This document shows positions 2,864 to 38,234 of a DNA stretch of 64,000 bases, in pieces (position 1 is the stretch's first letter; every line of letters starts with the position of its first letter). Source of the DNA: an uncultured Acidobacteriota bacterium (lineage in GTDB: Bacteria > Acidobacteriota > JAQAZP01). The stretch is from contig CAWIIB010000001.1 in NCBI GenBank assembly GCA_963836075.1, positions 225,002 to 289,001 of the forward strand. Reading direction: 5' to 3'. The notes beneath the pieces were generated by a model. That model saw nothing but the letters and a program-made list of their open reading frames with translations. It did not search any database and was not told where the DNA came from. The position numbers and the translations under genes were made by a program.

Positions 2864-4171
2864 ATGTCCGGATTGAACCTCGAAAAGAGCCGGCGGCTCT
2901 TCGAACAGAGCGGAAAACGGATCCCCGGCGGGGTCGAATTCTCCGGTTCGCGCTTTCCGTTCGGTGGGCGGTACGCCGCCATTCATCAGCCGGGGCAGCG
3001 GTGCCCGGATCTGGGACGTGGACGGCAACGAGTATGTGGACCATGTCTGTTCCTGGGGGCCGCTGCTCTTTGGTCACGCCCACCCGGCAATCCTCGAGGC
3101 GGTGAACCGCGCCGCCGCTCGGGGCACGACCTTCGGCGCCCCCACCGAGGCGCGAGTTCAGGCTGGCCGAGGCGATCCACCGCTTTGTTCCTTCGATGGA
3201 AATGGTGCGTCTGGTCAGTTCGGGCACCGAAGCCACCATGAGCGCGGTGCGGCTGGCCCGCGGGTTCACCGGCCGCGAGGCGGTGATCAAGTTCAACGGC
3301 TGTTACCACGGGCATTCGGACGGCTTTCTGGTGCAGGCCGGATCCGGGGCCACCACCCTGGGCAGTCCGGACAGCCCGGGGGTGATACCGGGAACGGTGG
3401 CTGCCACGCTCCAGGTTCCGTTCAACGACCTGGAGGCGGTGGAGGAGGTGGCGCACGAGCACAGCGACCGGCTGGCCGCGGTGATCGTGGAACCGGTGGC
3501 CGGGAATATGGGAGTGATCCCCCCGAGCCCCGGCTTTCTCGCCGGTTTGCGGAAGCTGTGCGACCGCCACGGTGCCCTGCTGATCTTTGACGAGGTGATC
3601 ACCGGGTTCCGCCTGGCCCGGGGCGGGGCCCAGGAACTGTTCGGCATCCGGCCCGACCTGACCACCCTGGGCAAGATCCTCGGCGGCGGCCTGCCCCTGG
3701 GAGCCTTTGGCGGCCGTGCGGAGGTGATGGATGCCCTGGCCCCCACCGGGCCGGTGTACCAGGCCGGGACCCTGTCCGGCAACCCGGTGGCCGTGGCTGC
3801 CGGTCTGGCCGCCCTGGGTTTGATCGAGGACGATCCGGACCTCTACCACCGCCTGGAGCGCACCACCGGCCGCGCTGGTGGAGGAACTGCAGCGGCTGGC
3901 CGCCGAAAAGGGTGTTCCCATCCGTTACCAGAGGGTGGGATCGATGTTTACCCATTTTTTCACCGGCGAGGAGCGGGTGGCCAATTACGAGGACGCCACC
4001 GCCTGCGACACCGGCGCCTTCCGGCGCTACTTCGGCGCCATGCTGGAACGGGGTGTCTACCTCGCCCCGTCGGCCTTCGAAGCCGCCTTTGTCTCGGCGG
4101 TCCACCTGGACAGCGACCTGGAGCAGACCGTCGAAGCTCACCGGGCCGTCCTGGACCTGCTGCCGGACTGA
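2864..4171 (+). pseudogene. hemL: glutamate-1-semialdehyde 2,1-aminomutase, disrupted by three +1 single-base insertions
   Basis: The HemL protein is readable across three frames: 2864→~2936, ~2937→~3162, ~3163→~3874, ~3875→4171. Each break is a single extra G (gtcGaattc, cagGctgg, cgcGctgg). Removing each G restores a full-length aminotransferase class-III protein (…[14 protein letters not shown]…, …[28 protein letters not shown]…, …[15 protein letters not shown]…). Confidence 0.8.
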
Positions 4172-4224
4172 ACCGCGACCGGCGCCGGCAGGCGCCCGCC
4201 GCACGCATTGGTGGAGGAACTGAC

Positions 4225-4710
4225 ATGGATCTCCAGGCCCGGGACCTGATGGTCAGCGAATTCGATACTGTCTCTCCGGACGCGCCGCTGGCCGATGCGG
4301 TGCGATTGATGCGCAACCCGGTGAAGGGCGGCGCCGTGCGGCGGGTGTTCGGACTGATGGTGGTGGACGAAAATGACGCGCTGGTGGGCATGATCTCCAT
4401 GTTTGACGTGCTGTTCCACTTCGACATGATGTTTCACCTGGAGGAGACTCCGGACGGGGGGCCGGCCGGGGAGGCTCAATTGGAAGAGGCATTCCACCGC
4501 GCCTGCGAAAAGGCCGGACCGATGAAGGTGGAGGACCTGATGACCAGGACCCTGGTCAAGGTTGACGAACAGGCCCACATCACTGATATCATCGACATCC
4601 TGATCAAGACCCGGCACCGCCGCCTGCCGGTCTGTCGGGGAAACACCATTTGCGGTGTGATTTACATCTCCGACGTCTTTTACGAAATCTACAAGAACCT
4701 GCTTGGCTGA
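4225..4710 (+). CDS. CBS-domain pair protein (paralog 1)
   Basis: 161 aa with two CBS motifs (ARDLMV…, [10 protein letters not shown]…). A GGAGG RBS lies 7 nt upstream. It is a paralog of the ORF at 30682..31179. Confidence 0.75.
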
Positions 4711-4967: not shown

Positions 4968-5558
4968 ATGCTGACTGAACTCCTGCGCAGGAAGCGGTCA
5001 CGGATCCTTGCCGACTGGACCGAGATCATCTTCCGCAACTACCCCGAGCAGACCGCCACCTTTATGCGTGAACAGAAAGACCGGTTCAACAATCCGGTGG
5101 GCTATGCCGTTTCCCGCGAGGTGCCCCGGTTCCTCGACCTGCTCATCGAAGGCGCCGAACCCGGGGAGTCGGCCGCCGCCATCGACCGTTTTCTCCAGAT
5201 CAGGTCAGTGCAGGAATCCCGGGCTTCCCTGGCGCTTTCCTTCATTTTCGAGCTCAAGCAGGTGATCCGGGCGCAGACGGCCGGGGATCCCCGCTATCTC
5301 GAGGAGTTGGACAGACTGGACACCGCAATTGATCGCATCGGTCTTGCGGCCTGCGACATCTACCAGGGATACCGGGAAAAAATTCTGGAAATCAAGGCCA
5401 ACGAGATCCGCAACCGCTCGAAACTGCTGCTGGAGCGGATGAACATGTCTTACGGAGATGAACCGGGCGGAGCGGGTTGCTGCGCACCGGAGGATATTCC
5501 CGTCGAACCAGCGACCGACAAAGACGCTGGCGAACTCAAGGGAGGAAACGATAGATGA
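4968..5558 (+). CDS. RsbRD-N-like/DsrT-like conserved protein, translationally coupled to dsrM
   Basis: The ORF's stop overlaps the dsrM start (ATGA at 5555-5558). The start is uncertain, with a TTG at 4926 as the alternative. The N-terminus (MLTELLRRKRSRILADWTEI) resembles the RsbR N-terminal-like domain often found upstream of dsrMKJOP. Confidence 0.5.
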   Translation: MLTELLRRKRSRILADWTEIIFRNYPEQTATFMREQKDRFNNPVGYAVSREVPRFLDLLIEGAEPGESAAAIDRFLQIRSVQESRASLALSFIFELKQVIRAQTAGDPRYLEELDRLDTAIDRIGLAACDIYQGYREKILEIKANEIRNRSKLLLERMNMSYGDEPGGAGCCAPEDIPVEPATDKDAGELKGGNDR

Positions 5559-6556
5559 ACGTCTTGTACCCCCTTATCGCAATCATCCTGCTGGTCGTGA
5601 TTGCCACGGTGGGGGCGGGAACCGCCGGCCTGGACACGCTGTTCGGGGTCTATATCCCGTACCTGGCACTGGCGGTATTTCTGGTCGGGGTGACCTGGCG
5701 GGTCGTGCGCTGGGCCCGGGCGCCGGTGCCGTTCCGCATCACCACCACCTGCGGTCAGGCCAAGTCACTCCCCTGGCTGAAGAACAACCCGCTGGACTGC
5801 CCGGACAACGGCTGGGGCGTGGTGGGGCGGATGCTGCTGGAGGTGCTCTTCTTCCGCAGCCTCTTCCGCAACACCAAGGCCGAGCTGCGCCGTGAGCCGA
5901 AAACACGGCTGCTCTACGGGTCGGACAAGTTTCTCTGGGCCGGGTCGCTGGCCTTCCACTGGGCTTTCCTGATCATACTCCTGCGGCACTTCCGATTTTT
6001 TACCGAACCCACGCCCGCCTTTGTCGGCTGGCTGCAGATGTTTGACGGGTTCTTCCAGATTGGTGCGCCGGTGTTCCTGATGACCGACATGGTGATCCTG
6101 GCCGCGCTGTCCTATCTTTTCTTCCGCCGAATCCTCGACCCGAAGCTGCGCTACATCTCACTGCCCGCCGATTACTTCGCGCTCTTTCTCATCGCCGGGA
6201 TAGCCATCACCGGCGTGCTGATGCGCTACACCGTGGCCAAGGGCGACCTGCTGGCGGTGAAGCAGCTGGCTCTGGGTCTGTTCAGCTTCAGCCCGGTGGT
6301 CCCCCCGGGGATCAGCACCGTCTTCTTCGTCCACTTCTTCCTGGTCTGTGTACTGCTGGTCTACTTCCCGGCCAGCAAACTGATGCACATGGGCGGCGTT
6401 TTCCTCAGCCCCACCAGGAACCTGGCCAACAACAACCGGGCGAAACGGCATATCAACCCCTGGAACCCCGAGGTCAAGGTCCACACCTACGAGGAGTGGG
6501 AGGACGATTTCCGGGAGAAGATGAAGGGCTGCGGACTGCCTTTGGAGAGGGAGTGA
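5555..6556 (+). CDS. dsrM: DsrM, membrane di-heme cytochrome b subunit (NarI/HdrE-like) of the DsrMKJOP complex
   Basis: 333 aa polytopic membrane protein with NarI-like His ligands, followed immediately by dsrK. Confidence 0.9.
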   Translation: MNVLYPLIAIILLVVIATVGAGTAGLDTLFGVYIPYLALAVFLVGVTWRVVRWARAPVPFRITTTCGQAKSLPWLKNNPLDCPDNGWGVVGRMLLEVLFFRSLFRNTKAELRREPKTRLLYGSDKFLWAGSLAFHWAFLIILLRHFRFFTEPTPAFVGWLQMFDGFFQIGAPVFLMTDMVILAALSYLFFRRILDPKLRYISLPADYFALFLIAGIAITGVLMRYTVAKGDLLAVKQLALGLFSFSPVVPPGISTVFFVHFFLVCVLLVYFPASKLMHMGGVFLSPTRNLANNNRAKRHINPWNPEVKVHTYEEWEDDFREKMKGCGLPLERE

Positions 6557-6558
6557 CG

Positions 6559-8193
6559 ATGTCAGAACCTGAATACAAAATCGAAGACATAGCCCGTATC
6601 GACTACCGCCCGCCGAAGAAGGGCTGGATGGAGTCCGGCGCCGATTTCCGGGTAGGCACCTGGTGTTACAGCGCCAACGAGGAGAAGTGCCGCTATCTCG
6701 ACCTGCCCTTCCCGCACACCTGGTCGCCGTCCGACGAGGACTGGAAGCTGCCCCCGAACTGGAAGGAAATCATCCTCACCGCCCTGAGGGAGCGCAAGGA
6801 GAAATACCGTTCCTTCCAGCTGTTCATGGAGATCTGCGTCAGGTGCGGGGCCTGTGCCGACAAGTGCCACTACTTCATCGGCAGCGGCGACCCGAAGAAC
6901 ATGCCGGTGCTCCGCGGCGAGCTGCTGCGCTCGGTCTACCGCAAGGAGTTCACCACCTCGGGCAAACTGCTGGGCAAATTCGCCGGCGCCCGAGAGCTCA
7001 CCGAGGACGTAATCAAGGAGTGGTTCTACTACTTCTACCAGTGCACCGAGTGCCGGCGCTGTTCAGTCTTCTGCCCCTACGGCATCGACACCGCAGAGGT
7101 GACCATGCAGGGGCGGGAGCTGCTGGCCGAGATCGGGCTGGGGATAAACTGGATCAACGAGCCGGCGGCCAACTGCTTCCGCACCGGCAACCACCTGGGG
7201 ATCCAGCCCCACGCCTTTGTGGACAGCTTCGAGTTTGCGGTGGAAGACCTTGAGGACGTCACCGGGGTCAAGGTCGAGGCGCCGATCAACCGCAAGGGCG
7301 CCGAGATCCTGGTGGTGCCGCCCTCGGCCGACTACTTCGCTCACCCGCACTACTTCACCTTCCTCGGCTACCTGGCGCTGTTCCACGAGATCGGCCTGGA
7401 CTACACCTGGAGCGCTTACACCTCCGAGGGCGGGAACTTCGGCCTCTTCCACTCGCGGGAGATGATCAAGCGGCTCAATGCCAAGGTCTACGCCGAAGCC
7501 AAACGGCTGGGGGTCAAGTGGATTCTGGGCTGCGAGTGCGGCCACATGTGGCGGGTGATGCACCAGTACATGAACACGATGAACGGCCCGGCCGACTTCC
7601 TCGAGCAGCCGGTGTCGCCGATCACCGGGACCCGCTTCGGCAATGCCGCCTCGACCAAGATGGTGCACATCACCGAATTCACCGCGGACCTGATCCGCCA
7701 CAACAAGATCAAGCTGGACAAGAGCCGCAACGACCACATCCGGGCCACCTTCCACGACTCCTGCAACCCGGCCCGGGCCATGGGGCTGATCGATGAGCCG
7801 CGCTACGTGATCAACAACGTGTGCAACAACTTTTTCGAGATGCCGGACAACACCATCCGCGAGCAGACGTTCTGCTGCGGGTCGGGGGCCGGTCTGGGCA
7901 CCGACGAAAACATGGAGATGCGGCTGCGCGGCGGCATGCCGCGGGCCAACGCGGTGGAGTTCGTCAGGGACAAACACGGCGTGAACCACCTGCTCTGCAT
8001 CTGCGCCATCGACAAGGCCACCCTGCCGCCGCTGCTCGATTTCTGGGTGCCGGGGATCGAGGTGGCCGGAGTTCACGAGATGGTGGGCAACGCCCTGATC
8101 ATGGAGGGCTCCAATGACCGGAGCACCGACCTCCGCGGGGAGCCGTTGCCCCAGCTGGCCGCCACGGCGGAAGACAAGGGGGGTGACGACTAA
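6559..8193 (+). CDS. dsrK: DsrK, HdrD-like catalytic subunit (CCG domains, Fe-S) of DsrMKJOP
   Basis: ATG at 6559, 3 nt after the dsrM stop, with a GGAGAGGGAG RBS. The protein has CxxCxxC ferredoxin and CCG cysteine motifs (CNPARAMG…CCGSGAG). Confidence 0.9.
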   Translation: MSEPEYKIEDIARIDYRPPKKGWMESGADFRVGTWCYSANEEKCRYLDLPFPHTWSPSDEDWKLPPNWKEIILTALRERKEKYRSFQLFMEICVRCGACADKCHYFIGSGDPKNMPVLRGELLRSVYRKEFTTSGKLLGKFAGARELTEDVIKEWFYYFYQCTECRRCSVFCPYGIDTAEVTMQGRELLAEIGLGINWINEPAANCFRTGNHLGIQPHAFVDSFEFAVEDLEDVTGVKVEAPINRKGAEILVVPPSADYFAHPHYFTFLGYLALFHEIGLDYTWSAYTSEGGNFGLFHSREMIKRLNAKVYAEAKRLGVKWILGCECGHMWRVMHQYMNTMNGPADFLEQPVSPITGTRFGNAASTKMVHITEFTADLIRHNKIKLDKSRNDHIRATFHDSCNPARAMGLIDEPRYVINNVCNNFFEMPDNTIREQTFCCGSGAGLGTDENMEMRLRGGMPRANAVEFVRDKHGVNHLLCICAIDKATLPPLLDFWVPGIEVAGVHEMVGNALIMEGSNDRSTDLRGEPLPQLAATAEDKGGDD

Positions 8194-8576
8194 TGTACGA
8201 CGCTGGGAAAATCATCACCGGTCTGGTTGTCTTTCTGCTGCTGGTCACCTCGCCTGTCTGGTACAACCTGGCCAGCGGCCACTCGGCCGACGTGCCCGAG
8301 CTGGCCAAACCGGCCAACGCCGAGAACTGCGTGGCCGAAACCAGCTACATGCGGGCGGCGCACATGAACCTGCTCAATGATTGGCGCGAACAGGTGGTGC
8401 GCAACGAGAAGCGGGTCTTCGTCAGCGAGGACGGCACCGAGCACGAGATGAGCCTGACCAACACCTGCCTCGACTGCCACAAGGACAAATCGGCGTTCTG
8501 CGACCGCTGTCACGACTACACCATGGTCGATCCCTACTGCTGGGGCTGCCATATCGTGCCGGGAGGGGACAACTGA
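8193..8576 (+). CDS. dsrJ: DsrJ, periplasmic tri-heme cytochrome c
   Basis: Three CxxCH motifs (CLDCH, CDRCH, CWGCH) and an N-terminal signal/anchor. Its start overlaps the dsrK stop (TAATG). Confidence 0.9.
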   Translation: MYDAGKIITGLVVFLLLVTSPVWYNLASGHSADVPELAKPANAENCVAETSYMRAAHMNLLNDWREQVVRNEKRVFVSEDGTEHEMSLTNTCLDCHKDKSAFCDRCHDYTMVDPYCWGCHIVPGGDN

Positions 8577-9346
8577 TGGCTGTAGACCGAAGAGACTTTA
8601 TTAAAATGGCCGGGATCGGTGCCGCCCTGGGGCTGGCAGCGAAGACTCAGGCCGGTACGCTGACCAGGGAGGTCGGCAGTTACCGGGCCGGCGCGAAGGA
8701 GCGTACCGCGAAACGCTGGGCCATGGTGGTCGACCTGCGAAAAATCAGCGAGGAGACCATCGACCGCTGTGCCCGGGCCTGCCACGCGGCGCACAACGTT
8801 CCCGATTTCGGCAATCCCAAGGACGAGGTCAAGTGGATCTGGGGCGAGCCGTATCACAATGCCTTCCCGGCCCAGGAGAACCACCACACCAAGGAAGATC
8901 TGGCGCACATCATGGTCCCGGTGCTCTGCAACCACTGCGACAACCCGCCCTGTGTGCGGGTCTGCCCCACGCAGGCCACCTGGCGCCGCGAGGACGGGAT
9001 CGTGATGATGGACTGGCACCGCTGTATCGGCTGTCGCTACTGCATCACCGCCTGCCCCTACGGGTCGCGGAGCTTCAACTGGCGTGACCCCCGGCCGCAT
9101 ATCGAGAACATTGACCAGTCGTTTCCCACCCGTACCAGGGGTGTGGTGGAGAAGTGCACCTTCTGCAACGAGCGGCTGGCTCGCGGCGAGCAACCGGCAT
9201 GCGTCGAGGCCTGCGAACAGCGGGAGCTGGTGTTCGGCGACCTCGAGGACCCGCATTCCGAGGTGCGTGAGCTGCTGGCGGAGAACTTCACCATCAGGCG
9301 CAAGACGGGCCTTGGAACGCAACCCGAAATTTACTATATCGTGTAG
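8576..9346 (+). CDS. dsrO: DsrO, periplasmic ferredoxin-like Fe-S subunit (Tat signal)
   Basis: Starts at a TGATG overlap with dsrJ. The signal MAVDRRDFIKMAG is twin-arginine, and four Cys clusters of the HmcB/NrfC type are present. Confidence 0.85.
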   Translation: MAVDRRDFIKMAGIGAALGLAAKTQAGTLTREVGSYRAGAKERTAKRWAMVVDLRKISEETIDRCARACHAAHNVPDFGNPKDEVKWIWGEPYHNAFPAQENHHTKEDLAHIMVPVLCNHCDNPPCVRVCPTQATWRREDGIVMMDWHRCIGCRYCITACPYGSRSFNWRDPRPHIENIDQSFPTRTRGVVEKCTFCNERLARGEQPACVEACEQRELVFGDLEDPHSEVRELLAENFTIRRKTGLGTQPEIYYIV

Positions 9347-9355
9347 GGGCAGCAC

Positions 9356-10513
9356 ATGTTAGAAAATGCACTCTATGGTAGCCGGAAGTACTGGGGATGG
9401 ATCTTTGGCCTCCTCACGGTGATGGCGGTGGGGGCCGTCTGCTACATCTGGCAGTACAACGTGGGCCTGGGCATCACCGGGCTGAGCCGGGACGTCTCCT
9501 GGGGCTTTTACATCGCCCAGTTCACCTTCCTGGTGGGTGTCGCCGCCTCGGCGGTGATGGTGGTCCTGCCATACTATCTCCACAACTACAAGGCCTTTGC
9601 CAAGATCACCATCCTTGGCGAATTCCTCGCCATATCCGCGGTGAGCATGTGTGTCATGTTCATCTTCGTCGACATGGGTCAGCCGTTCCGGCTGATCAAC
9701 ATGTTCCTCCATCCCAGCCCGAAATCGATGATGCTCTGGGACACGGTGGCGCTCAACGGCTACCTGCTGCTCAACGTGCTCATTTCCTATGTCACCCTGC
9801 GGGCCGAGCGCAAATCGGTTGCCCCGCCCGGCTGGATCAAACCGGTGATCATCCTCTCCATTCCCTGGGCGGTGAGCATCCACACCGTCACCGCGTTCCT
9901 TTACAGCGGTCTGGGCGGGCGGCCCTTCTGGTTCACCGCCATCCTGGCCCCGCGCTTTCTGGCCTCGGCCTTTGCCTCCGGTCCTGCCCTGCTGATCATT
10001 GTCTGCCTGCTGCTCAAGCGGTTGACCCGTTTCGATGCCGGAAAGGAGCCGATCCAGAAACTGGCGATCATCGCCGCCTATGCCATGTCACTCAATGTTT
10101 TCTTCATCGCCCTGGAGTTCTTCACCGCATTCTACAGCGGCAACCCCGAGCACACCGTTCACCTGCGCTATCTCTACTTCGGGGTGGGCGGCGGCTCCAA
10201 CCTGGTGCTTTTCATGTGGGTCTCCACGGCGCTGGCCCTGGTGGCACTGGTGCTGCTGCTGGTGCCCGAGTTGCGGAAGAACGAAAAGATCCTCACCTGG
10301 GCCTGCATCGGCGTGTTCATCTCCATCTGGATCGACAAGGGGATGGGGATGGTGGTGGGCGGCTTCGTGCCCAACCCGTTGGGCAAGGTCATCGAATATA
10401 CCCCCACGCTGCCCGAGCTGCTGATCTCGGCTTCGATTTACGCCACCGGGATGCTGATCATCACCGTGCTGTACAAGATTGCGCTCTCGGTGCGCGGGCA
10501 ACTGAAATACTGA
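9356..10513 (+). CDS. dsrP: DsrP, NrfD/PsrC-like integral membrane quinone-interacting subunit
   Basis: 385 aa with about 10 predicted transmembrane segments. It is the last gene of the dsrMKJOP order. Confidence 0.9.
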   Translation: MLENALYGSRKYWGWIFGLLTVMAVGAVCYIWQYNVGLGITGLSRDVSWGFYIAQFTFLVGVAASAVMVVLPYYLHNYKAFAKITILGEFLAISAVSMCVMFIFVDMGQPFRLINMFLHPSPKSMMLWDTVALNGYLLLNVLISYVTLRAERKSVAPPGWIKPVIILSIPWAVSIHTVTAFLYSGLGGRPFWFTAILAPRFLASAFASGPALLIIVCLLLKRLTRFDAGKEPIQKLAIIAAYAMSLNVFFIALEFFTAFYSGNPEHTVHLRYLYFGVGGGSNLVLFMWVSTALALVALVLLLVPELRKNEKILTWACIGVFISIWIDKGMGMVVGGFVPNPLGKVIEYTPTLPELLISASIYATGMLIITVLYKIALSVRGQLKY

Positions 10514-10525
10514 CCGCTGGGGGAG

Positions 10526-10556
10526 GGGAGGGGCCGGTCCGGCCGCCCCCCTTTCG
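10526..10556 (+). terminator. GC-rich hairpin plus CCCTTTC after dsrP; candidate intrinsic terminator
   Basis: GGGGCCGG-T-CCGGCC(G)CCCC stem followed by ctttcg. Confidence 0.45.
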
Positions 10557-10659
10557 CAGTTCGGGTTTCCCCCTATTCACGCAGGGAATCCCTAGATATG
10601 TTATCTATTATGTGCGAACAGTAAACACTGGAACGGCAGTACTGGAGGACAGGGAAAAC

Positions 10660-11609
10660 ATGGGTATTGTTCTGATCGTCACCTGCCTGTCGCTGGTTGT
10701 CTTCGTCGCCAGCGTGCTGACCCGGTTCATCCGGCTCTCCCGGTTGCCGGTTCACCTGCGCTGGGAAGTCTACCCCGTGCCGCACGAGAAGGGGAAAGGC
10801 AAATACGGCGGTTCATATCTCGAGGAGTACGAGTGGTGGACCAAGCCGCGGCAGACGTCGAAGCTGGCCGAATTGAAGGTGATGATCCCGGAGATCATCC
10901 TGCTGGCCGGTGTCTGGGAACACAACAGGAAGCACTGGTTCCGCACCTTCCCCTTCCACTTCGGCCTCTACCTCCTGGCCGGGCTGATCGCCCTCCTCGC
11001 CGTTGGCGGCGTGGCCACGGCGGCCGGCGTCCAGGTGACGGCGGACGGGGGCCTGTTCGGTGCGCTGGTCTACTACCTGACCATGGTGCTGGGCTATGCC
11101 GGCATGGGCCTGGCCCTCTATCGGGGCGTTGGCCCTGCTGCTGCGGCGGACCTTCAACGCCGACTACCGCGAATACACCACCGGCGCCGACTTCTTCAAC
11201 CTCGCTCTTCTTCATTGCCGCCCTGGTGGTGGCCCTGGTCACCCACTTCACGGTGGACCGGCACTTCGCCAACCTGCGGGGCTTTTTCCAGGGGCTGCTG
11301 ACCTTCGACGGTTCGGCGATCCCGCAGCTGTCAGCGCTGCAAAGCCTGGAGATCGTACTGGCCTCGCTGCTGGTGGCCTATATCCCGCTGACCCACATGT
11401 CGCACTTCTTCACCAAGTGGTTCACGTACCACGACGTGCGCTGGAGCGACGAACCGAACCTCGAGGGCAGCGGGTTCGACGAGAAGATTGCCAAGCAACT
11501 TGAAGTCCACGGTGAGTTGGTCCGCCCCGCACATCCGCGGCGACGGCAAGAAGAAAAACTGGATCGACGTGGTCACGTCTTCGGGGCGGGAGGAATAGCA
11601 AGTGCATGA
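10660..11609 (+). pseudogene. second NarI/DsrM-like membrane cytochrome b (HmeC/HdrE-type, 'DsrM2'), disrupted by two +1 insertions
   Basis: Start MGIVLIVTCLSLVV with a GGAGG RBS. Frame breaks lie at ~11123-11127 (an extra G in cggggcg) and ~11212-11217 (an extra base in cttctt). The reconstructed protein keeps TM helices and a C-terminal THMSHFFTKWFTYH heme-ligand motif like the DsrM and QmoC C-termini. Its stop overlaps the next start (ATGA). Confidence 0.65.
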
Positions 11610-13224
11610 CAAAAAAACGCGTAAAATTCAGAGATATTTCGAAACCAACGGCCAGGCTGTCCGAGGAGCTGCGCAAGGAGGACTTCATGCCGCTCCCCGC
11701 GCCGCTGGACGATGCCGGAGGCTCTGCCGGACTTCCCGCCGTTGAAAGAGACAGTGGAAGAAAAGTACGAGTGCTCACTGGACGACACGGTGGCCCTCAA
11801 TCTGCCAAAGCCCGAGACCAAGGAAGAGGAGGACGAGCTGGTCGCCAAGTTCCTCTCCGGGCTGCAGAAGCTCTTCACCAAGGAGAACAACTGGACCTTT
11901 CTCCAGCCGCTGCTGCTCTCCATGGACCACTGCGCCTCCTGCCACACCTGCTCCGACTCCTGCCACATCTACGAGGGCAGCGGCAAGAACCCGATCTACC
12001 GGCCGGCCTACCGCTCGGAGGTTTTCCGCCGGCTCTACAAGAACCATGTCAAGGGTAACGGCGGCGGGATTCTGGCCGCCTGGCGCAACGGCGAGATCGA
12101 GCTCAACTGGACCACCGTGGCCCGGCTGGCCGAGCTCTCCTACCGCTGCAACCTCTGCCGGCGCTGCGCCCAGACCTGTCCCATCGGCGTGGACAACGGC
12201 CTGATCGGCCACGAGATCCGCAAGCTGTTCAGCCAGGAGATGGGCATCGCGGCCAAGGAAATCCACGAGACCGGCTCGGTGCTGCAGCTCAAGGTGGGCT
12301 CCTCCACCGGGATGAACGACCTGGTGGTCAAGGACAACATGGAGTTCATCGACGAGGACGTCACCGAGAAGACCGGGATCACCGTGGAGACGCCCTGGGA
12401 CAAGGAAGGGGCCGACATCCTGCTGATCCACAACGCCGGCGAGATCATGGCCTGGCCGCTGAACCCCGGGGCCTTCGGCGTGATCTTCGAGTCGGCCGGG
12501 CTGAGCTGGACCATGTCCAGCGAGATCGCCGGTTACGACAGCATCAACTACGGCCTCTGGTACGACGATGCCCAGTTCGCCCGGGTGGCGATCAAGCACG
12601 CCGAGGCGGCGAAGAAGCTGGGCGTGAAGAAGATCGTCCTCGGCGAGTGCGGGCACGCCCACAAGGCACTGACCGTGATCGCCGACCGGGTGCTCACCGG
12701 CGACCTGAACATCCCCCGGGAAAGCTGCCTGGTGACCCTGGAGGAGATCGTCATGTCCGGCCGGCTGAAGGTCGACCCGGAGCGCAACGACTTCCCGGTG
12801 ACCCTGCACGACCCCTGCAACCTGGTGCGACTGATGGGCATCGTCGAGCCGCAGCGCCGCATCCTGCGCAAGATCGCCCCGCGGTTCCGCGAGATGACGC
12901 CCCACGGCGTCGACAACTACTGCTGCGGCGGCGGCAGCGGGTTCGCCATCATGAGCGGCAACAACTTCGCCGACTGGCGGATCCAGGTCTCCGGGCCGCA
13001 AGAAGCTCGAGCAGGTGCTCAACGCCTTCGAGGGCGAGCTGGACCCGTCGATCAAGAAGTATGTCTGCGCCCCCTGCTCCAACTGCAAGGGCCAGCTGCG
13101 GGACATCTTCGCCTACTACGATCTGTGGGAGAAGCACTCCATCATGTATGACGGGCTGGTGGAACTGATCGTCAACTGCATGGTGGACGCCAACCCGGGC
13201 TTCATCGAGTGGGAGCAGCACTGA
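11606..13224 (+). pseudogene. second HdrD/DsrK-like CCG-domain Fe-S protein ('DsrK2'/HmeD-like), disrupted by two +1 insertions
   Basis: The N-terminus MTKKRVKFRDISKP… runs in frame 2 up to ~11716, where an extra G sits in ccggagg. The long middle ORF 11712..13151 has CxxCxxCxxxC plus CCG motifs (CNLVRLMG, CCGGGSGF). An extra C at ~12998 shifts to the C-terminal ORF ending at 13224 (…CAPCSNCKGQ…). Confidence 0.65.
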
Positions 13225-13435
13225 CCCGGACTCCGTGCCGTGACGCCGGAAGCGGACGCCCCGCGGCCCCCGATTCAGGGGGCCGGAGGTTTCCTCTCCG
13301 GCGTCACGCTGTACAGCGGAGAAGCCGCCATTCGGACAACGATACGTTGCGACAGCTGGGCCGGGTGGGGCGATTGGCTCTAAGTGCATATGGTTCAGAT
13401 GAATAGGGCTTCGCTGTCGGATTCCTTCCGATCCA

Positions 13436-13455
13436 ATGCAACAATATATGCAACA
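13436..13455 (+). promoter_or_regulatory. tandem direct repeat ATGCAACA-atat-ATGCAACA immediately upstream of the aprB promoter; candidate activator site
   Basis: An exact 8-bp direct repeat with a 4-bp spacer, ending 15 bp upstream of the -35 box. Confidence 0.4.
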
Positions 13456-13470
13456 TTTTCCCGAAACCCC

Positions 13471-13499
13471 TTGACAACCAAAATCGCTCTTGGTAGAGT
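13471..13499 (+). promoter_or_regulatory. sigma70-type promoter for aprBA (TTGACA-17-TAGAGT)
   Basis: Consensus -35 at 13471-13476, a 17-bp spacer, and -10 TAGAGT at 13494-13499. This implies a ~265-nt 5' leader. Confidence 0.5.
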
Positions 13500-13766
13500 T
13501 GGCGCTGATTTGTGTCGTGAATGATACTCGTACCAGTTCCCTCGGCTGACCGCCAGGGGAACCGGAGGATTTTCAGAGAGCTTCATTTCATATACAAGGT
13601 GTCAATCAATCGGGACGAGATTTCAGGAAAACTATGGGGCTTTTTCCCAAGGAATTCCACATTCAGGCTGAAAAGATAGCCCTGGGGAAGGGGGTGGCGC
13701 CAAAGTAGAAAAGGGTGTTTTCAGTCCATCGAATCGTTAGACTTGCAATTAAAGGAGACGCTGATA

Positions 13767-14198
13767 ATGCCAAGTTATGTCATTCCCGATAAGTGCGATG
13801 GCTGCAAGGCTCTGGACAAGACGGCCTGCCAGTATATCTGCCCCAACGACCTGATGAAGCTGGACAAGGCCACTGAGAAGGCCTACAACCAGGATCCGGA
13901 CATGTGCTGGGAGTGCCAGTGCTGTGTCAAGATCTGCCCCACCCAGGCCATCGACGTGCGCGGCTATGCCGACTTCATGCCCCTGGGCGCCAGCGTTGTG
14001 CCCATGCGGAGCACCGACTCCATCATGTGGACGATCAAGTTCCGTGACGGAAGTCTGAAGCGGTTCAAGTTCCCCATCCGCACCACCGAGGAAGGCAAAG
14101 CCGTTCCCGATGGCGGATTCGAGACGCACAGCGATCTCAACAGCCCCGAACTCTACACCGAGCCGGCCTCCGCCGGCGGGCCCATTGCCAAGCTGTAG
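13767..14198 (+). CDS. aprB: adenylylsulfate (APS) reductase beta subunit
   Basis: MPSYVIPDKCDGCK… with two [4Fe-4S] ferredoxin motifs. An AAGGAG RBS lies 10 nt upstream of the ATG at 13767, and aprA follows directly. Confidence 0.9.
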   Translation: MPSYVIPDKCDGCKALDKTACQYICPNDLMKLDKATEKAYNQDPDMCWECQCCVKICPTQAIDVRGYADFMPLGASVVPMRSTDSIMWTIKFRDGSLKRFKFPIRTTEEGKAVPDGGFETHSDLNSPELYTEPASAGGPIAKL

Positions 14199-14218
14199 CA
14201 GCAGGAGGTTACAGACCA

Positions 14219-16120
14219 ATGAATAACTGGGAAACTGTTGTTGTCGAAACCGACCTGCTCATCGCCGGCGGCGGAATGTCCGCCTGCGGAGCGGCCACCG
14301 AGGCCGCGTACTGGGCCAAGGCCAACGGCCTGAAGATCACCCTGGTGGACAAGGCCGCCATGGACCGTTCCGGCGCCGTGGCCATGGGTCTCTCCGCCAT
14401 CAACCAGTATGTGGGCATCGCCGCCGGTGACAACACCGCCAATGACTACATCAAGTATGTCCGCCAGGACCTGATGGGCGTCTGCCGCGAGGATCTGGTC
14501 TACGACATCGCCCGCCACGTCGACTCCTCGGTGCACCTCTTCGAGAAATGGGGCCTGCCCATCTGGAAGGACGACGAGGGCAACTACGTGCACGAAGGCC
14601 GCTGGCAGCTGATGATCAACGGTGAGTCGTACAAGATCATCGTGGCCGAGGCGGCCAAGAACGCCATGGCCGAGCTGGGCGACAGCGGCGAGATCTACGA
14701 ACGCGTCTTCATCACCGGCCCCCTGCTTCAGGACGGCAAATGTGTCGGCGCCGTGGGTTTCTCCACCCGTGAAGAGAAGTTCTACGTTTTTAAAGCCAAA
14801 ACCACCATCTGTGCCATGGGCGGTGCGGTGCACGTGTTCAAGCCCCGGTCCACCGGTGAAGGTTTCGGCCGTTCCTGGTATCCCCCGTTCAACACCGGTT
14901 CCAGCGCCTACTTCACCCTGGCCGCCGGCGCCGAAATGACCTGCCAGGAAGTCCGCTTCATCCCCATCCGCTTCAAGGATGCCTACGGTCCGGTGGGTGC
15001 GTGGTTCCTGCTCTTCAAGTCCCGGGCCACCAACGCCTTCGACGGCGAGTACATGGTGGAGCGGCGCCCCGAGCTGGAAAAGTGGCTCCCCTACGGCAAG
15101 GTCAAGCCCATCCCCGCCAACCTGCGGAACTGGCTCGGCATGCTGGACATCTTCGAAGGCAAGGGTCCGATCTACATGAGGACCGAAGAGGCGATGCAGC
15201 GGATCGCCGACGAGTACAAGGACGATCCCAAGGCCTTCAAGAAGAAGTCCAAGGAACTGGAGAGCGAAGCCTGGGAAGACTTCCTCGACATGACCATCTC
15301 CCAGGCCATGCTCTGGGCGGCCACCAACGTCAACCCTGAAGAGAAACCCTCCGAGATCGCTGCCTGCGAGCCGTATTTCATCGGTTCCCACTCCGGCGCC
15401 TCCGGTGCCTGGATCTCCGGTTCCGAGGATCTGCAGACCGCCGAGACCAAGGGTGAATATTTCTGGGGCGGCTACGGCCTGACCACCACTCCCGGCCTCT
15501 TCGCCATTGGCGACGCGTCCGGCGCTTCGAGCCACAAATTCTCCTCCGGCTCCCACGCCGAGGGTCGTATCGCCGGCAAGGCCGCGATCAAGTACATCCT
15601 CGAGAACAACACGGCTCCGGTGGTGGACGACGCCACCATCCAGCAGCTCCGTGAGACGGTGTTCAAGCCGATGGTGACCTTCGAAGAGCACAAGGGCGCC
15701 ACCACCGATCCCAACGTCAACCCCAACTACATTCGGCCCCGGCAGTTCATGTATCGTCTGCAGAAGATCATGGACGAGTACGCCGGCGGCGTTTCCGCGG
15801 CTTTCTCCACCAACAACAAAATGCTCGACCGGGCGATGGAGCTGCTGACCTTCCTCAAGGAAGACTCCGAGAAGCTCGCCGCCGAGGACAACTACGAGCT
15901 GGAACGTTGCTGGGAAAACCTGCACCGCGCCATGCAGGCCGAGTCTCACGTGCGGACCCTGATGTTCCGTGAAGAGACCCGCTGGCCCGGATACTATTTC
16001 CGCGCCGACATGCCGACCATGGACGAGGAAAACTGGAAGCTGTTCGTCAACTGCAAGATGGATCCGGCGTCCGGTGAGTGGGAGATGATCAAGCGGCCCA
16101 TCTACTCGATCATCGACTAG
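14219..16120 (+). CDS. aprA: adenylylsulfate (APS) reductase alpha subunit (FAD flavoprotein)
   Basis: 633 aa with an N-terminal FAD fold (DLLIAGGGMSACGAA) and an AGGAGG RBS. The length and motifs match AprA. Confidence 0.9.
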   Translation: MNNWETVVVETDLLIAGGGMSACGAATEAAYWAKANGLKITLVDKAAMDRSGAVAMGLSAINQYVGIAAGDNTANDYIKYVRQDLMGVCREDLVYDIARHVDSSVHLFEKWGLPIWKDDEGNYVHEGRWQLMINGESYKIIVAEAAKNAMAELGDSGEIYERVFITGPLLQDGKCVGAVGFSTREEKFYVFKAKTTICAMGGAVHVFKPRSTGEGFGRSWYPPFNTGSSAYFTLAAGAEMTCQEVRFIPIRFKDAYGPVGAWFLLFKSRATNAFDGEYMVERRPELEKWLPYGKVKPIPANLRNWLGMLDIFEGKGPIYMRTEEAMQRIADEYKDDPKAFKKKSKELESEAWEDFLDMTISQAMLWAATNVNPEEKPSEIAACEPYFIGSHSGASGAWISGSEDLQTAETKGEYFWGGYGLTTTPGLFAIGDASGASSHKFSSGSHAEGRIAGKAAIKYILENNTAPVVDDATIQQLRETVFKPMVTFEEHKGATTDPNVNPNYIRPRQFMYRLQKIMDEYAGGVSAAFSTNNKMLDRAMELLTFLKEDSEKLAAEDNYELERCWENLHRAMQAESHVRTLMFREETRWPGYYFRADMPTMDEENWKLFVNCKMDPASGEWEMIKRPIYSIID

Positions 16121-16333: not shown

Positions 16334-16627
16334 ATGACAGAACAGACACCCCAGACCTGCCCCCACTGCCAATCGGCCCTGTTGCCGTTTCGCACGCCGC
16401 CCAACACTTCGTGGGGCGGCAACATCCACCTGGCCTGCTTCAACGACGAATGTCCCTACTTCGTCCGCGGCTGGAAGTGGATGGCCGAAAAATACGAAGC
16501 CCACGCCTCGTACCGTTTCATGGTCGACCCGGTGAACGGGACCACCGGACCCCTGCCGGTCTGGTCGGCCCAGGCGCTGCGCGACTTGATTCTGCAAGAG
16601 GGCGAAGAGTGGGATTCCGAGGAGTGA
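16334..16627 (+). CDS. small zinc-ribbon-like hypothetical protein (CPHC…CFNDECPYF)
   Basis: 97-aa ORF with four Cys in a CxxC…CxxxC arrangement. It lies 4 nt upstream of the next ORF, in the same operon as qmoABC. Confidence 0.55.
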   Translation: MTEQTPQTCPHCQSALLPFRTPPNTSWGGNIHLACFNDECPYFVRGWKWMAEKYEAHASYRFMVDPVNGTTGPLPVWSAQALRDLILQEGEEWDSEE

Positions 16628-16631
16628 CTGG

Positions 16632-17454
16632 ATGAACGAGGCCAGCGATTTCAAGAAAAAGATCATGTCGGATGCGCCCCGCCTGAACTACGGCGACCGT
16701 TTCCGCTTTTCCTGCAACCCCGGCGTGCCCTGCTTCAATGCCTGCTGCGCCGACATCAACATCGTCTTGACCCCCTACGACATCCTGCGGCTGAAAAACC
16801 GCCTGGGCATCAGCTCCAGCGAATTCCTCGACAGATACGCCGTGGTGCCCTTCAACAAGGAAGTCAAGCAGCCGGTGCCGCTGCTCAAGATGTCGGACCA
16901 CGAGGACAAGCGCTGCCAGTTCGTTGGCCAACAGGGCTGCACGGTTTACGAGGACCGGCCCTGGGCCTGCCGGATGTACCCCCTGGGGCTGGCCGCACCG
17001 CGTGACGAAGCCGAGCAGGGCAAGCGGTTCTACTTCCTGCTGGAAGAGTCACACTGCAAGGGCTTCGAGGAAGACAACGAATTCTCGGTGGCCGGCTGGA
17101 TCGAAGACCAGGGGATCCGCGAGTACCGATGAGGCGGGGGAACTGTTCAAGGACATTTCGCTGCACCCCTATTTTGAAAAAGGCGACCTCTCGCCGGCCA
17201 AGATGGACATGTTCTTCAACGCCTCCTATGACCTGGACCGCTTCCGCCGGTTTGTCTTCGGATCGAGTTTTCTCGAAAAGTTCGACGTGGAGCAGGAGAC
17301 GGTGGACAAGATCAGGACCGATGACGTGGCGATGATGAAATTCAGCTTCAACTTCCTGCGCTACGCGCTGTTTTACGAACCGACGATGAAGTTGAAACCG
17401 GAGTTCGAAGAGATGAAGAAACGGGAGAAGGAGTTCTTCGAGGAGAAGGACTGA
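16632..17454 (+). CDS. YkgJ/UPF0153-family putative Fe-S/zinc-chelating protein with a C-terminal charged extension (one +1 frameshift)
   Basis: Has the CxxxxCxxCC…C family signature (SCNPGVPCFNACCADINIVLTPYD…CQFVGQQGCTVYEDRPWACRMYP). The reading frame shifts at ~17126 (an extra C in tacc), after which the protein continues as …DEAGELFKDISLHPYFEKGD… to 17454. Confidence 0.6.
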
Positions 17455-32488: not shown

Positions 32489-32520
32489 CAAGGCCGCCAG
32501 GCCTGCGCTTGAGACCCATC

Positions 32521-32562
32521 GAGGGCCCTTCCCCGGAGACCGGGGAAGGGCCCTCGTTTTTA
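32521..32562. terminator. strong bidirectional intrinsic terminator between convergent sat and lpxB
   Basis: 16-bp stem GAGGGCCCTTCCCCGG-aga-CCGGGGAAGGGCCCTC followed by GTTTTTA on the + strand and an A-run on the other side. Confidence 0.8.
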
Positions 32563-33744
32563 TGTACCCGGGGCGCCGGGAGCGGGAGGATTTGACAGCA
32601 GGTCCAGCACCTGCTCCGCGCAGCGGCGGTAGGCCCCGGGGGAGCCGAGGCGCTGGCGCACGTCACGCAGGTCGGAACGGATACCGGCGGCGGTGGCCGG
32701 GTCCAGCAGTCGTGAAAGTTCGGACTCCAGCCGTCGGGGTGTGAGGTCGCCCTGGATCAGTTCCACGGCCACCTGGCGCCGGGCGATAAGGTTGACCATG
32801 GCGAAGTGCTCCAGGCGGACCAGGGCCCGGCCCAGGAGGTAGGTCAGCGGGCTCACCCGGTAGACCACGGTCAGCGGTACCAGGTGGAGCGCCGTTTCCA
32901 GGGTCACGGTGCCCGAGGCCACCAGCGCCGCGTCGGCCGCCCGGAGCACCGTGTAGAGCTCACCTTCACTGCGCAACATCAGCCCGGGAACCGAGCGGTG
33001 AGCCAACAGGCGGTCCATGGCCTGGTCATCCTTCAGGTGCTCGGCCCGCACCAGTACCGGACGCAGGCGGCGCTGGGCCGCAGCCATGGTGACCGCCTCG
33101 AGGATGGTGGGCAGGATGCGGCGCACCTCGTTCTTCCGGCTGCCGGGGAGCAGGGCCACCACCGTGTCACCGGGATCCAGTCCCAGGTCCATCCGGGCCT
33201 GCCGGCGTTCCGCGTCGGTCGGTTCGCTACCCACCACATCCAGCAGCGGGTGGCCGACAAAGACGGTATCGATGCCGCCGGCCCGGAACAGTTCCTCCTC
33301 GAAGGGGAAGATCACCATCATCCGGTCCACCATCCTGGCCAGGGTCTTGATTCTCCCCCGGCGCCAGGCCCAGACCTGGGGACTGATGAAGTAGACCACC
33401 GGTATGCCCAGGCGCCGGGCCTCGCGGCAGAGACGGAAATTGAAATCGGGGAAATCCACGGCGATGAACAGTTGCGGAGGGTCGTCGCGCATGGCGCTCT
33501 TCAACGCCCGGAGGCAGGAAAACACGTCACCGAGGCGGGAGAGCACTTCCACCAGTCCGGCGGTGCCGAAGACTCCCGCACCGGAATGGCTGGGCTGGAG
33601 CCCGGCCTCCACCATGCGGCGGCCGCCCATGCCGCTGAAGCGCACACCGGGGGCGAGGCGGCTGAGCTGGCGCAGCAGGCCGGCGCCGTGCAGGTCACCG
33701 GACGATTCGCCGGCTACGATCATGATGCTGGGCTGCTGGACCAT
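32560..33744 (-). CDS. lpxB: lipid-A-disaccharide synthase
   Basis: N-terminal IMIVAGESSGDLHGA motif. The length and overall similarity match LpxB. Confidence 0.85.
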   Translation of the reverse strand: MVQQPSIMIVAGESSGDLHGAGLLRQLSRLAPGVRFSGMGGRRMVEAGLQPSHSGAGVFGTAGLVEVLSRLGDVFSCLRALKSAMRDDPPQLFIAVDFPDFNFRLCREARRLGIPVVYFISPQVWAWRRGRIKTLARMVDRMMVIFPFEEELFRAGGIDTVFVGHPLLDVVGSEPTDAERRQARMDLGLDPGDTVVALLPGSRKNEVRRILPTILEAVTMAAAQRRLRPVLVRAEHLKDDQAMDRLLAHRSVPGLMLRSEGELYTVLRAADAALVASGTVTLETALHLVPLTVVYRVSPLTYLLGRALVRLEHFAMVNLIARRQVAVELIQGDLTPRRLESELSRLLDPATAAGIRSDLRDVRQRLGSPGAYRRCAEQVLDLLSNPPAPGAPGT

Positions 33745-33767
33745 CGATGCTCCCGTTCCCCGGGCGG

Positions 33768-36173: not shown

Positions 36174-36580
36174 CTGGGATCTGGACCGCAAAACGCTGTT
36201 GCTGGGATTCTGGGACAGCCAGCTGTAATAAGGGAATTCATTTACCTCGAAAAGATAGCACAGTTGACGGACGCCTTCAAGAAGTCAGTTCTACGGAAGT
36301 CCTGTTTTTCCAAAGGGATTGGATTGCTCAATGGGGGGGGGAAGGCCGGCGGCGGGGGATCGCCCGCGGAATCCTTGAGCTTCCGGTCAACTCAAAATAC
36401 ATTACGTCCGATAAGATATATTATGTAAACTAATACGCGCGGCAGTGTACAGTCGTAGAGCCAGACAGCTTACTGCAAGCCCCTATATTTTAGATGGTTG
36501 TCCTTCTTTTGGTGCCCCCAAAAGCGGTTTCGTGGTAGTGACCCGATGCGGTCAGGACCATTGATGAGTTGGGGTGTCGA

Positions 36581-37486: not shown

Positions 37487-38234
37487 GCTTGATAACCTCC
37501 TCGCAGAGTTTGCTGTATTCAGCCGCTCCACTTGAGCGCGGGGCGAAGGTGAAAATGGGTTCCTTGTAGGCCGGGCTCTCCTCAAGTCGCACGCTCTTGC
37601 TGATGCAGGTGGCGAACACCTTGTCTCCGAACACCTGTTCAACCTGCTCCTTGATATCCCGGGCCAACAGGGTCCGTTTGTCGTGAATGGTGATCAGAAC
37701 GCCGAGAACTTCGAGGTCGGGGTTCGGCCGGTCCTTGATCTTTCCCAGGGTCTCAAGCAGATCCTCGGTGCCCTCCAGGGCAAAATAGGAGGACTGAATC
37801 GGGATGAGCACGTGGGTCGCCGCCACCAGCCCGTTGACCGTGATGATACCCAGTGTGGGCGGTGTGTCGATGATGATGTATTCGAACTGGTCGGCAATCT
37901 CCTCCAGCCGATCCTTTAGGCGGAAGATGGAATCGAGTTCGCCGATCAGGCGGCTTTCCAGTTTGGCCAGTGAAATCTTGGACGGGGCCAGGAAAAGGTG
38001 CTCAAAGGCCGTGGGGACGATGATGTTGGATAACGGCTCCCGGGCATTGGTCAGCACCTCGAAAACCGATTTCTCCAGTGGGTGGACATCCACAAAGGAG
38101 ACAGAACTGTTGGACTGGGGATCCATGTCCACCAGCAGAGTTTTGTGCCCCCTCATGGCCAGAGCGGCTGAAAGGTTGATGGCTGTGGTGGTCTTACCGA
38201 CGCCACCCTTTTGGTTGGTGACCGTAATAATCAA
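37458..38234 (-). CDS. parA: chromosome partitioning ATPase ParA/Soj
   Basis: Deviant Walker A motif (KGGVGKTTTAINLSAALA). Confidence 0.85.
   Translation of the reverse strand: MIITVTNQKGGVGKTTTAINLSAALAMRGHKTLLVDMDPQSNSSVSFVDVHPLEKSVFEVLTNAREPLSNIIVPTAFEHLFLAPSKISLAKLESRLIGELDSIFRLKDRLEEIADQFEYIIIDTPPTLGIITVNGLVAATHVLIPIQSSYFALEGTEDLLETLGKIKDRPNPDLEVLGVLITIHDKRTLLARDIKEQVEQVFGDKVFATCISKSVRLEESPAYKEPIFTFAPRSSGAAEYSKLCEEVIKRGKKKKRPA

What the first reader, a model, noticed from the sequence alone, without database searches (positions are those of the whole stretch)
10660..13224. A second DsrM/DsrK-like pair next to dsrMKJOP is riddled with frameshifts
Immediately after dsrP there is another NarI-like membrane cytochrome b gene, translationally coupled (ATGA) to another HdrD/CCG-domain Fe-S protein gene. 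This is an HmeCD/HdrDE-type or 'DsrM2K2' module. Both genes are interrupted, by two single-base insertions each. The adjacent dsrMKJOP, aprBA and qmoABC (more than 13 kb) are intact. Either this paralogous module is decaying, or this stretch has localised sequence errors.
Basis: seen in the sequence. Interest (0 to 1): 0.6.

Follow-up and report, generated by a model that had tools for sequence, protein, structure and literature searches.

The report
Broken dsrMK paralog: probably assembly errors
A second, DsrMK-like membrane electron-transfer gene pair next to the sulfate-reduction genes really is broken by single extra bases. The same kind of lesion also breaks the haem-synthesis gene hemL and one more gene nearby, so this is most likely patchy sequencing or assembly error, not gene decay.

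Summary
Window 10660-13224 holds a NarI-like cytochrome b gene (M2, 311 aa once repaired) and a DsrK-like CCG/Fe-S gene (K2, 538 aa once repaired). Against two intact syntenic orthologs (about 88% nucleotide identity) the window carries six single-base insertions and no deletions. The reported ATGA coupling is an artefact of the missed third shift. M2 really stops at TAG 11596-98, 7 nt before the K2 ATG.

The damage is not confined to this pair. hemL (2864-4171) has three +1 insertions, and a 273-aa cysteine-cluster gene between aprA and qmoA has one (about 17126). That makes ten insertions and no deletions between 2.9 and 17.2 kb, and none detected between 17.5 and 64 kb.

The repaired M2 and K2 differ at none of the 299 alignment columns that are at least 97% conserved, and they keep every cluster-ligand cysteine. 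Pairwise dN/dS stays low. The window's proteins sit on a single 2.30-Mb contig, which implies a long-read assembly.

Patchy, insertion-type consensus error is the best explanation (about 0.85). Genuine recent decay is not excluded (about 0.1). The gene pair itself is an ordinary, widespread dsrMK paralog.

The parts
10660..11598 (+). M2: NarI-like dihaem cytochrome b gene, a DsrM paralog. It gives 311 aa after three inserted bases are removed. The true stop is TAG 11596-98.
   Evidence: Pfam PF02665 scores 33.3 bits against a cut-off of 22.9. Intact 311-aa orthologs lie at L001 5059-5994 and L002 1440-2375. Identity to the window's own DsrM is 23%. There are five hydrophobic segments, and His32/42/100/245/248/257/290 are conserved in 74-75 of 75 homologs.
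11119..11119 (+). Single-base insertion 1 in M2 (cccTC[T]ATCgg), shifting frame 1 to frame 2. It is not in a homopolymer.
   Evidence: It aligns to a gap in both L001 and L002. The codon-bias Viterbi path switches frame at 11132.
11204..11205 (+). Single-base insertion 2 in M2 (AACCTC[G/C]TCTTC), shifting frame 2 to frame 3.
11505..11506 (+). Single-base insertion 3 in M2 (GAAG[T/C]CACGG), shifting frame 3 to frame 1.
   Evidence: It restores the C-terminus shared with L001 and L002.
11603..11603 (+). Extra T in the 7-nt M2-K2 spacer, which is 6 nt in both orthologs. It is non-coding and could be natural.
11606..13224 (+). K2: DsrK-like Fe-S/CCG protein gene. It gives 538 aa after two inserted bases are removed.
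   Evidence: NCBIfam DsrK NF045796 scores 330 bits, below the cut-off of 400. Pfam Fer4_8 and CCG match. Identity to the window's own DsrK is 28%. A full-length single-frame match is found in 80 of 80 genome loci and 80 of 80 metagenome loci. All ligand cysteines are conserved.
11715..11718 (+). Single-base insertion 1 in K2 (GATG[C]CGGAGG), shifting frame 2 to frame 3, at about residue 38.
12993..12997 (+). Single-base insertion 2 in K2 (TCCGG[G]CCGC), shifting frame 3 to frame 1, at about residue 463. It lies between the CCG motif and the last CxxC ligands.
   Evidence: The database protein P0124 (479 aa) is this frame-shifted reading.
2864..4171 (+). hemL (glutamate-1-semialdehyde aminomutase) with three +1 single-base insertions, at about 2936, about 3150-3152 and about 3870-3872. 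It gives 434 aa when repaired.
   Evidence: The sequence reads GGV|NSPVRAF and APTE|..FRLAEAI across the shifts. The PDB HemL alignment of the uncorrected ORF stops at chain residue 340 of 435. The repaired protein aligns end to end, at 528 bits. Viterbi frame switches agree.
16632..17454 (+). CxxCxxCC-type cysteine-cluster gene (273 aa in relatives) split by one inserted C at 17126-17127.
   Evidence: There is a 1-base gap in L001. L001 has an intact 273-aa ORF at 11008-11829. The window has a 166-aa ORF plus a tail in the +1 frame. The other full-length members of its 90% cluster are 273 aa.
5555..10513 (+). dsrMKJOP, serving as an intact control.
   Evidence: There is no indel against L001 from the start of its coverage (window 5598) to 10513. 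dN/dS is 0.07-0.11.
13767..16120 (+). aprBA, serving as an intact control.
   Evidence: There is no indel against L001 or L002.

Best explanation
The locus encodes a normal, functional-by-design DsrMK-type module.

How the module most likely works:
- M2 is a NarI-like, probably dihaem, cytochrome b that exchanges electrons with the menaquinone pool.
- K2 is a cytoplasmic protein with two [4Fe-4S] ferredoxin motifs, one CCG motif for a noncubane [4Fe-4S] cluster, and the GECGH cysteine.
- By analogy with DsrMK and HdrED, the pair would carry out quinol-linked reduction or oxidation of a protein-bound disulfide or trisulfide, probably on DsrC. This function is inferred by homology, not shown.

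Why it looks broken:
The frame breaks are not biology. They are residual single-base insertion errors in the consensus of a long-read-derived 2.3-Mb contig. The errors occur in patches: hemL has 3, M2-K2 has 6, and the CxxCxxCC gene has 1. The cause of the patchiness is unknown. Locally poor or unpolished consensus, or mixed-strain pile-ups, are speculation.
For: 1. Against two intact syntenic orthologs, all indels inside coding sequence over 13 kb are single-base insertions in the window. There are no deletions, and dsrMKJOP and aprBA have none.
2. The same lesion type breaks hemL three times. The repaired protein aligns end to end with solved HemL structures at 528 bits, against 320 bits unrepaired. 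It also breaks a conserved 273-aa gene once. The total is ten insertions and no deletions.
3. Repaired K2 and M2 show no deviation at 239 and 60 columns that are at least 97% conserved across 80 and 75 homologs. The median homolog shows 1 and 0. Every Fe-S ligand cysteine and the GECGH motif are retained. There are no in-frame stops.
4. Codon bias continues undiminished in each shifted frame.
5. Pairwise dN/dS is 0.07-0.09 for K2, like dsrK and dsrP.
6. All window proteins are recorded on one contig of 2,297,832 bp. Among 160 related loci, the only other split M2 genes are in two MAGs (L052, L070) whose record names and contig sizes suggest long-read assemblies. K2 is intact in 160 of 160.
7. 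Nanopore-only MAGs are documented to retain indel errors that create false pseudogenes (PMC8103633).
Against: - Six of the ten events lie in the 2.56-kb M2-K2 pair, which is 4% of the window. A technical process must therefore be strongly patchy, and I cannot show why.
- The sites share no motif, and most are not homopolymer runs.
- An all-insertion spectrum is not the textbook residual error of any platform (my own knowledge).
- The window lineage shows a modest excess of nonsynonymous change in M2K2: N:S of 26:48 against 44:199 in the other two lineages, p = 0.004. Control genes show no such excess.
- No reads and no independent assembly of this population were available.
- I could not check whether a second hemL copy exists elsewhere in the genome.
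Confidence: 0.85

Rival explanations
1. Genuine, very recent pseudogenisation. With DsrMKJOP present, the redundant M2K2 paralog lost selection in this lineage and accumulated five frame-breaking insertions. The hemL and CxxCxxCC lesions would then be either also real or unrelated errors.
For: Lesions are densest in M2K2, with six of ten events in 2.56 kb. The window-lineage N:S ratio is raised about 2.4-fold in M2K2 but not in the control genes. The paralog is plausibly dispensable, because its genomic context varies among relatives.
Against: - No changes occur at 299 highly conserved residues. About 5 would be expected if the roughly 15 excess nonsynonymous changes were random (my arithmetic).
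- There are no stop codons or deletions, although bacterial pseudogenes are typically deletion-biased (my own knowledge).
- hemL is hit at a similar density, 3 events in 0.94 kb, by the same type of lesion.
- The pair is intact in all other relatives examined.
Confidence: 0.1
2. Mixed-population consensus artefact, a sub-case of the technical error explanation. Reads from co-occurring relatives that carry a similar sulfur-metabolism island were piled up on conserved genes, and the consensus step introduced spurious insertions there.
For: K2 is 81-86% identical in MAGs labelled as three different phyla, so near-identical islands are widespread. The errors fall in conserved genes.
Against: Equally or more conserved genes (aprA, dsrAB, dsrK) carry no lesion. 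No read data were available to test this.
Confidence: 0.3
3. Programmed +1 recoding, by ribosomal frameshifting or transcriptional slippage, restores the proteins in vivo.
For: All shifts are +1, and the downstream frames are perfectly preserved.
Against: The ten sites share no motif, slippery run, in-frame stop or homopolymer. All orthologs encode the same residues without any shift. One event is non-coding. Five recoding events in one operon would be unprecedented (my own knowledge).
Confidence: 0.01

Closest known systems
DsrMK module of DsrMKJOP (menaquinol:DsrC-trisulfide oxidoreductase; PMC10861901)
   Same: It has the same two-subunit architecture: a NarI-like cytochrome b plus a cytoplasmic Fe-S protein. 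K2 has two CX2CX2CX3C motifs, one CXnCCGXnCX2C motif and the GECGH cysteine. It lies directly beside dsrMKJOP in a dsr/apr/qmo/sat island.
   Different: K2 is only 28% identical to the window's DsrK and M2 only 23% identical to DsrM. Both score below the NCBIfam equivalog cut-offs, 330 against 400 and 22 against 300. There are no JOP partners of its own. The substrate is unknown.
dsrM2/dsrK2 paralogs reported in sulfate reducers and peatland Acidobacteria (Hausmann et al. 2018, PMC6018796)
   Same: It is a second dsrMK-like pair encoded in the dsr gene neighbourhood. Its close relatives are mostly Acidobacteriota MAGs.
   Different: That paper places the paralogs upstream of dsrAB. Here the pair sits between dsrP and aprB. 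I did not test orthology to the published dsrM2K2 sequences.
HdrED, TmcBC and HmcEF (HdrD-type membrane-linked disulfide reductase modules)
   Same: They share the CCG-domain catalytic subunit coupled to a membrane cytochrome b. NCBIfam gives weaker hits to TmcB (200 bits) and HmcF (179 bits).
   Different: HdrD has two CCG motifs, whereas K2 has one Pfam CCG match (PMC10861901). The scores are far below the cut-offs of 735-750 bits.
False pseudogenes from indel errors in long-read MAGs (e.g. PMC8103633, PMC12007338)
   Same: Single-base indels fragment otherwise conserved genes on a megabase-scale contig. Two other MAG loci that appear to be long-read assemblies show a split M2.
   Different: Here the errors are all insertions, mostly outside homopolymers, and strongly clustered. 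The sequencing platform of the source is not known to me.

Membership tests
DsrK (NCBIfam NF045796 equivalog) | Whole-protein HMM score at or above the curated cut-off of 400 bits | tested here: not met
   The repaired K2 scores 330.3 bits. It is a paralog, not DsrK proper.
DsrK/HdrD-like catalytic subunit (superfamily level) | Two ferredoxin-type CX2CX2CX3C motifs, a CXnCCGXnCX2C motif and the GECGH cysteine (features as listed in PMC10861901) | tested here: met
   C109/112/115/119, C181/184/187/191, C348 in LGECGH, C404, C439-C440-G and C487/C490 are all present. Each is conserved in 79-80 of 80 homologs. Pfam Fer4_8 and CCG match above their cut-offs.
HdrD (methanogen HdrED) | Two complete CCG motifs | tested here: not met
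   Pfam CCG matches a single stretch, residues 399-499.
DsrM (NCBIfam NF038037) and NarI (TIGR00351) equivalogs | Score at or above the cut-off (300 and 105.55 bits) | tested here: not met
   The scores are 22.4 and 35.1 bits.
NarI-like cytochrome b superfamily (Pfam PF02665) | Pfam gathering score, about five transmembrane helices, and conserved histidines for two b haems | tested here: met
   The score is 33.3 bits against 22.9. There are five hydrophobic segments and seven near-invariant histidines. The ligand assignment itself was not tested.
Genuine bacterial pseudogene | Frame-disrupting lesions present in the DNA of the organism | not testable with these tools
   The lesions are present in the deposited sequence. 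No reads or independent assembly were available.
Genuine bacterial pseudogene | Relaxed constraint: substitutions at conserved sites, stop codons, and dN/dS rising towards 1 | tested here: not met
   There are no changes at 299 conserved columns and no stops. Pairwise dN/dS is 0.07-0.22. Only a modest lineage-specific rise in N:S is seen.
Genuine bacterial pseudogene | Lesions specific to the dispensable gene, with neighbouring essential genes clean | tested here: not met
   hemL carries three identical-type insertions and the CxxCxxCC gene carries one.
Long-read assembly indel artefact | Source is a long-read assembly, with errors scattered over conserved genes and absent in reads | tested here: inconclusive
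   The 2,297,832-bp contig suggests long reads. Four genes in three separate places are affected.

The most novel reading that the evidence does not exclude
The insertions are real. A natural population that keeps DsrMKJOP has very recently inactivated its conserved DsrM2K2 module through an insertion-biased mutational process. That would show the paralog is dispensable and would date its loss.
Probability: 0.08. Interest if true: 0.35.

Novelty: not a real feature. Interest (0 to 1): 0.1.

Why it matters
The main value is cautionary. On this contig, single-base insertion errors make at least four conserved genes look like pseudogenes, so metabolic reconstructions from this MAG would under-call hemL and the DsrMK paralog. 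The database entry P0124 (479 aa) is the frame-shifted reading of K2.

The gene pair itself is an ordinary member of a widespread, strongly conserved DsrMK-like family whose substrate is still unknown. If the lesions were real, they would say only that the paralog is dispensable in one lineage.

Tried and rejected
- Exact-protein look-ups of DsrP, AprA, the 479-aa K2 fragment and P0124 returned no contig, so the source DNA and its context could not be fetched.
- Scans of the genome and metagenome collections found no relative closer than 96% amino-acid identity (about 88% nucleotide). No independent assembly of the same population exists in these collections.
- A k-mer search around the ten sites found no shared motif after allowing for multiple testing. 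That argues against a methylation-motif error or a recoding signal.
- Abutting same-frame ORFs at 47272/47273 were considered as a possible in-frame stop or selenocysteine codon. They are lptC/lptA-like and lptB genes with full domains.
- Rfam and tRNA scans of the window found nothing.
- The raised window-lineage N:S ratio was considered as evidence of decay. It was set aside as decisive evidence because none of the changes touches a conserved column.

Full report
**1. What is in the sequence**

An ORF listing and a direct read of 10400-13500 show a gene starting at ATG 10660, 147 nt after the dsrP stop. Its reading frame runs 1, then 2, then 3, then 1. It is followed by a gene from ATG 11606 whose frame runs 2, then 3, then 1, ending at 13224.

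After conceptual repair, the first product matches Pfam Nitrate_red_gam (33.3 bits, cut-off 22.9). The second matches Fer4_8 and CCG. NCBIfam gives DsrK at 330 bits, below its 400-bit cut-off, and weaker hits to TmcB and HmcF.

**2. Exact lesions**

A genome-collection scan found 80 loci with a full-length relative of the second gene. The two closest are L001 (an uncultured bacterium, 96% amino-acid identity in the best matched segment) and L002 (an Acidobacteriota MAG, 94%). Both have the same order, dsrP, NarI-like, DsrK-like, aprB, with intact ORFs of 311 and 538 aa.

DNA alignment shows six single-base insertions in the window relative to both orthologs, and no deletions:
- about 11119
- about 11204-5
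- about 11505-6
- 11603, in the spacer
- about 11715-18
- about 12993-97

With it, M2 ends ...TVSWSAPHIRGDGKKKNWIDVVTSSGREE at TAG 11596-98. GGGAGGAA (11588-95) then serves as the ribosome-binding site for the ATG at 11606. The reported ATGA overlap is a by-product of reading the wrong frame.

Removing one base per site gives 311-aa and 538-aa proteins without internal stops.

**3. Is the damage confined to this pair? No.**

- Over the 13.2 kb aligned to L001, dsrMKJOP and aprBA have no indel. A further 1-base insertion at about 17126 splits a gene that is a 273-aa ORF in L001. The resulting 166-aa fragment sits in a 90% cluster whose other full-length members are 273 aa.
- A codon-bias Viterbi scan of the whole window flagged stop-less frame switches only in M2K2 and in hemL.
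- Reading hemL directly shows GGV|NSPVRAF at about 2936, APTE|..FRLAEAI at about 3151, and ...RTTG|ALVEELQRL... at about 3871.
- The uncorrected hemL ORF aligns to solved HemL structures only up to residue 340 of 435. The repaired 434-aa protein aligns end to end, at 528 bits.
- All the other window ORFs I submitted to Pfam give full-length domain matches.

The total is ten single-base insertions and no deletions, all between 2.9 and 17.2 kb: three in hemL, three in M2, one in the spacer, two in K2, and one in the CxxCxxCC gene.

**4. Decay or error?**

Evidence against decay:
- Repaired K2 and M2 differ from the consensus at 0 of 239 and 0 of 60 columns that are at least 97% conserved among 80 and 75 homologs.
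- All Fe-S ligand cysteines, the GECGH cysteine and the near-invariant histidines are present.
- Codon bias persists in each shifted frame.
- Pairwise dN/dS for K2 (0.07-0.09) equals that of dsrK and dsrP.

Evidence that could favour decay:
- A three-taxon count shows a modest lineage-specific rise in nonsynonymous change in M2K2: 26:48 against 44:199, p = 0.004. Control genes show no rise.
- None of those changes touches a conserved column. About five would be expected if the changes were random, so they look like changes filtered by selection rather than neutral decay or random base errors.

Evidence for a technical origin:
- An all-insertion spectrum (10 to 0) runs opposite to the deletion bias usual in bacterial pseudogenes (my own knowledge).
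- hemL sits in a cobA-hemD/hemB/hemL cluster, in an organism that needs sirohaem and haem for its Dsr proteins. It is hit at the same density as M2K2.
- All the window proteins looked up are recorded on one contig of 2,297,832 bp, which implies a long-read assembly. P0124 in the database is the frame-shifted 479-aa reading of K2.
- Among 160 related loci, K2 is never broken. M2 is split only in two MAGs (L052, L070) whose record names and contig sizes suggest long-read assemblies.
- Residual indels that create false pseudogenes are documented for nanopore MAGs (PMC8103633).

**5. What remains unexplained**

- The errors are strongly clustered, with six of ten in 4% of the window.
- They are mostly outside homopolymers.
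- They share no motif.
- I could not obtain reads, the source record, or an independent assembly. Genuine recent decay keeps about a 0.1 probability.

**6. What the module is and how it should work**

The pair is a distant paralog of the adjacent DsrMK. K2 is 28% identical to DsrK and M2 is 23% identical to DsrM. It keeps the features that define the DsrK catalytic subunit as listed in PMC10861901.

By homology, M2 would exchange electrons with menaquinone, and K2 would reduce or oxidise a disulfide or trisulfide, probably on DsrC, at its noncubane cluster. This is inferred, not shown.

Second dsrMK copies (dsrM2K2) are already reported in sulfate reducers and Acidobacteria (PMC6018796). The M2-K2 pair is conserved in all 80 genome loci, in varying contexts.

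**7. Verdict**

The decaying-paralog reading is not supported. The localised-sequence-error reading is favoured, and the errors extend beyond the pair. Novelty and interest are low.

Noticed in passing
window 2864-4171: hemL (glutamate-1-semialdehyde aminomutase) is broken by three +1 single-base insertions, at about 2936, about 3151 and about 3871. The 504-aa ORF at 3196-4710 is a chimera of hemL, an out-of-frame stretch and the next gene (a CBS-domain protein).
   Followed up: yes
window 16632-17454: A 273-aa CxxCxxCC (YkgJ-like, 'Fe-S-cluster containing') gene between aprA and qmoA is split by one inserted C at 17126-27. It is preceded by a conserved 97-aa cysteine-rich ORF (16334-16627) that is also present in L001.
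   Followed up: yes
window 297-32488: The first half of the window is one large plus-strand sulfur and tetrapyrrole island. In order it holds cobA-hemD fusion, hemB, hemL, a CBS protein, an RsbRD_N (dsrT-like) protein, dsrMKJOP, M2K2, aprBA, qmoABC, a sigma-54 activator with PAS domains, dsrC, dsrAB, a small ORF, a dsrN-like gene, a dsrL-like gene, and sat.
   Followed up: partly
loci L003-L017 against the window: K2 is 81-86% identical in MAGs labelled Planctomycetota, Gemmatimonadota and Acidobacteriota, while the adjacent M2 is only 58-68% identical. This points to unusually strong constraint on K2, horizontal transfer of the pair, or unreliable bin labels.
   Followed up: no
L052 about 5567; L070 about 5400: Two MAG loci that appear to be long-read assemblies (MFD-named records, contigs of 0.3-0.5 Mb) each show M2 split across two frames. 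L052 shifts +1 and L070 shifts -1. No other genome locus or metagenome contig examined shows a split.
   Followed up: partly
window about 32500-39000: Gene orientation flips from plus to minus at about 32.5 kb. Cumulative GC skew peaks at about 38-39 kb. A low-GC stretch (0.50-0.56) holds parA (37458-38234) and parB (36581-37642). This may be a replication landmark or an island boundary.
   Followed up: no
window 13225-13766: A non-coding spacer of about 540 nt lies between K2 and aprB. It is retained, with many small indels, in L001 and L002. It has no Rfam match and is presumably the aprBA promoter and leader.
   Followed up: partly
L127, L131, L137, L146: Some metagenome contigs carry an extra partial K2-like fragment (C-terminal 30-170 aa) 0.7-5 kb downstream of the intact K2.
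   Followed up: no
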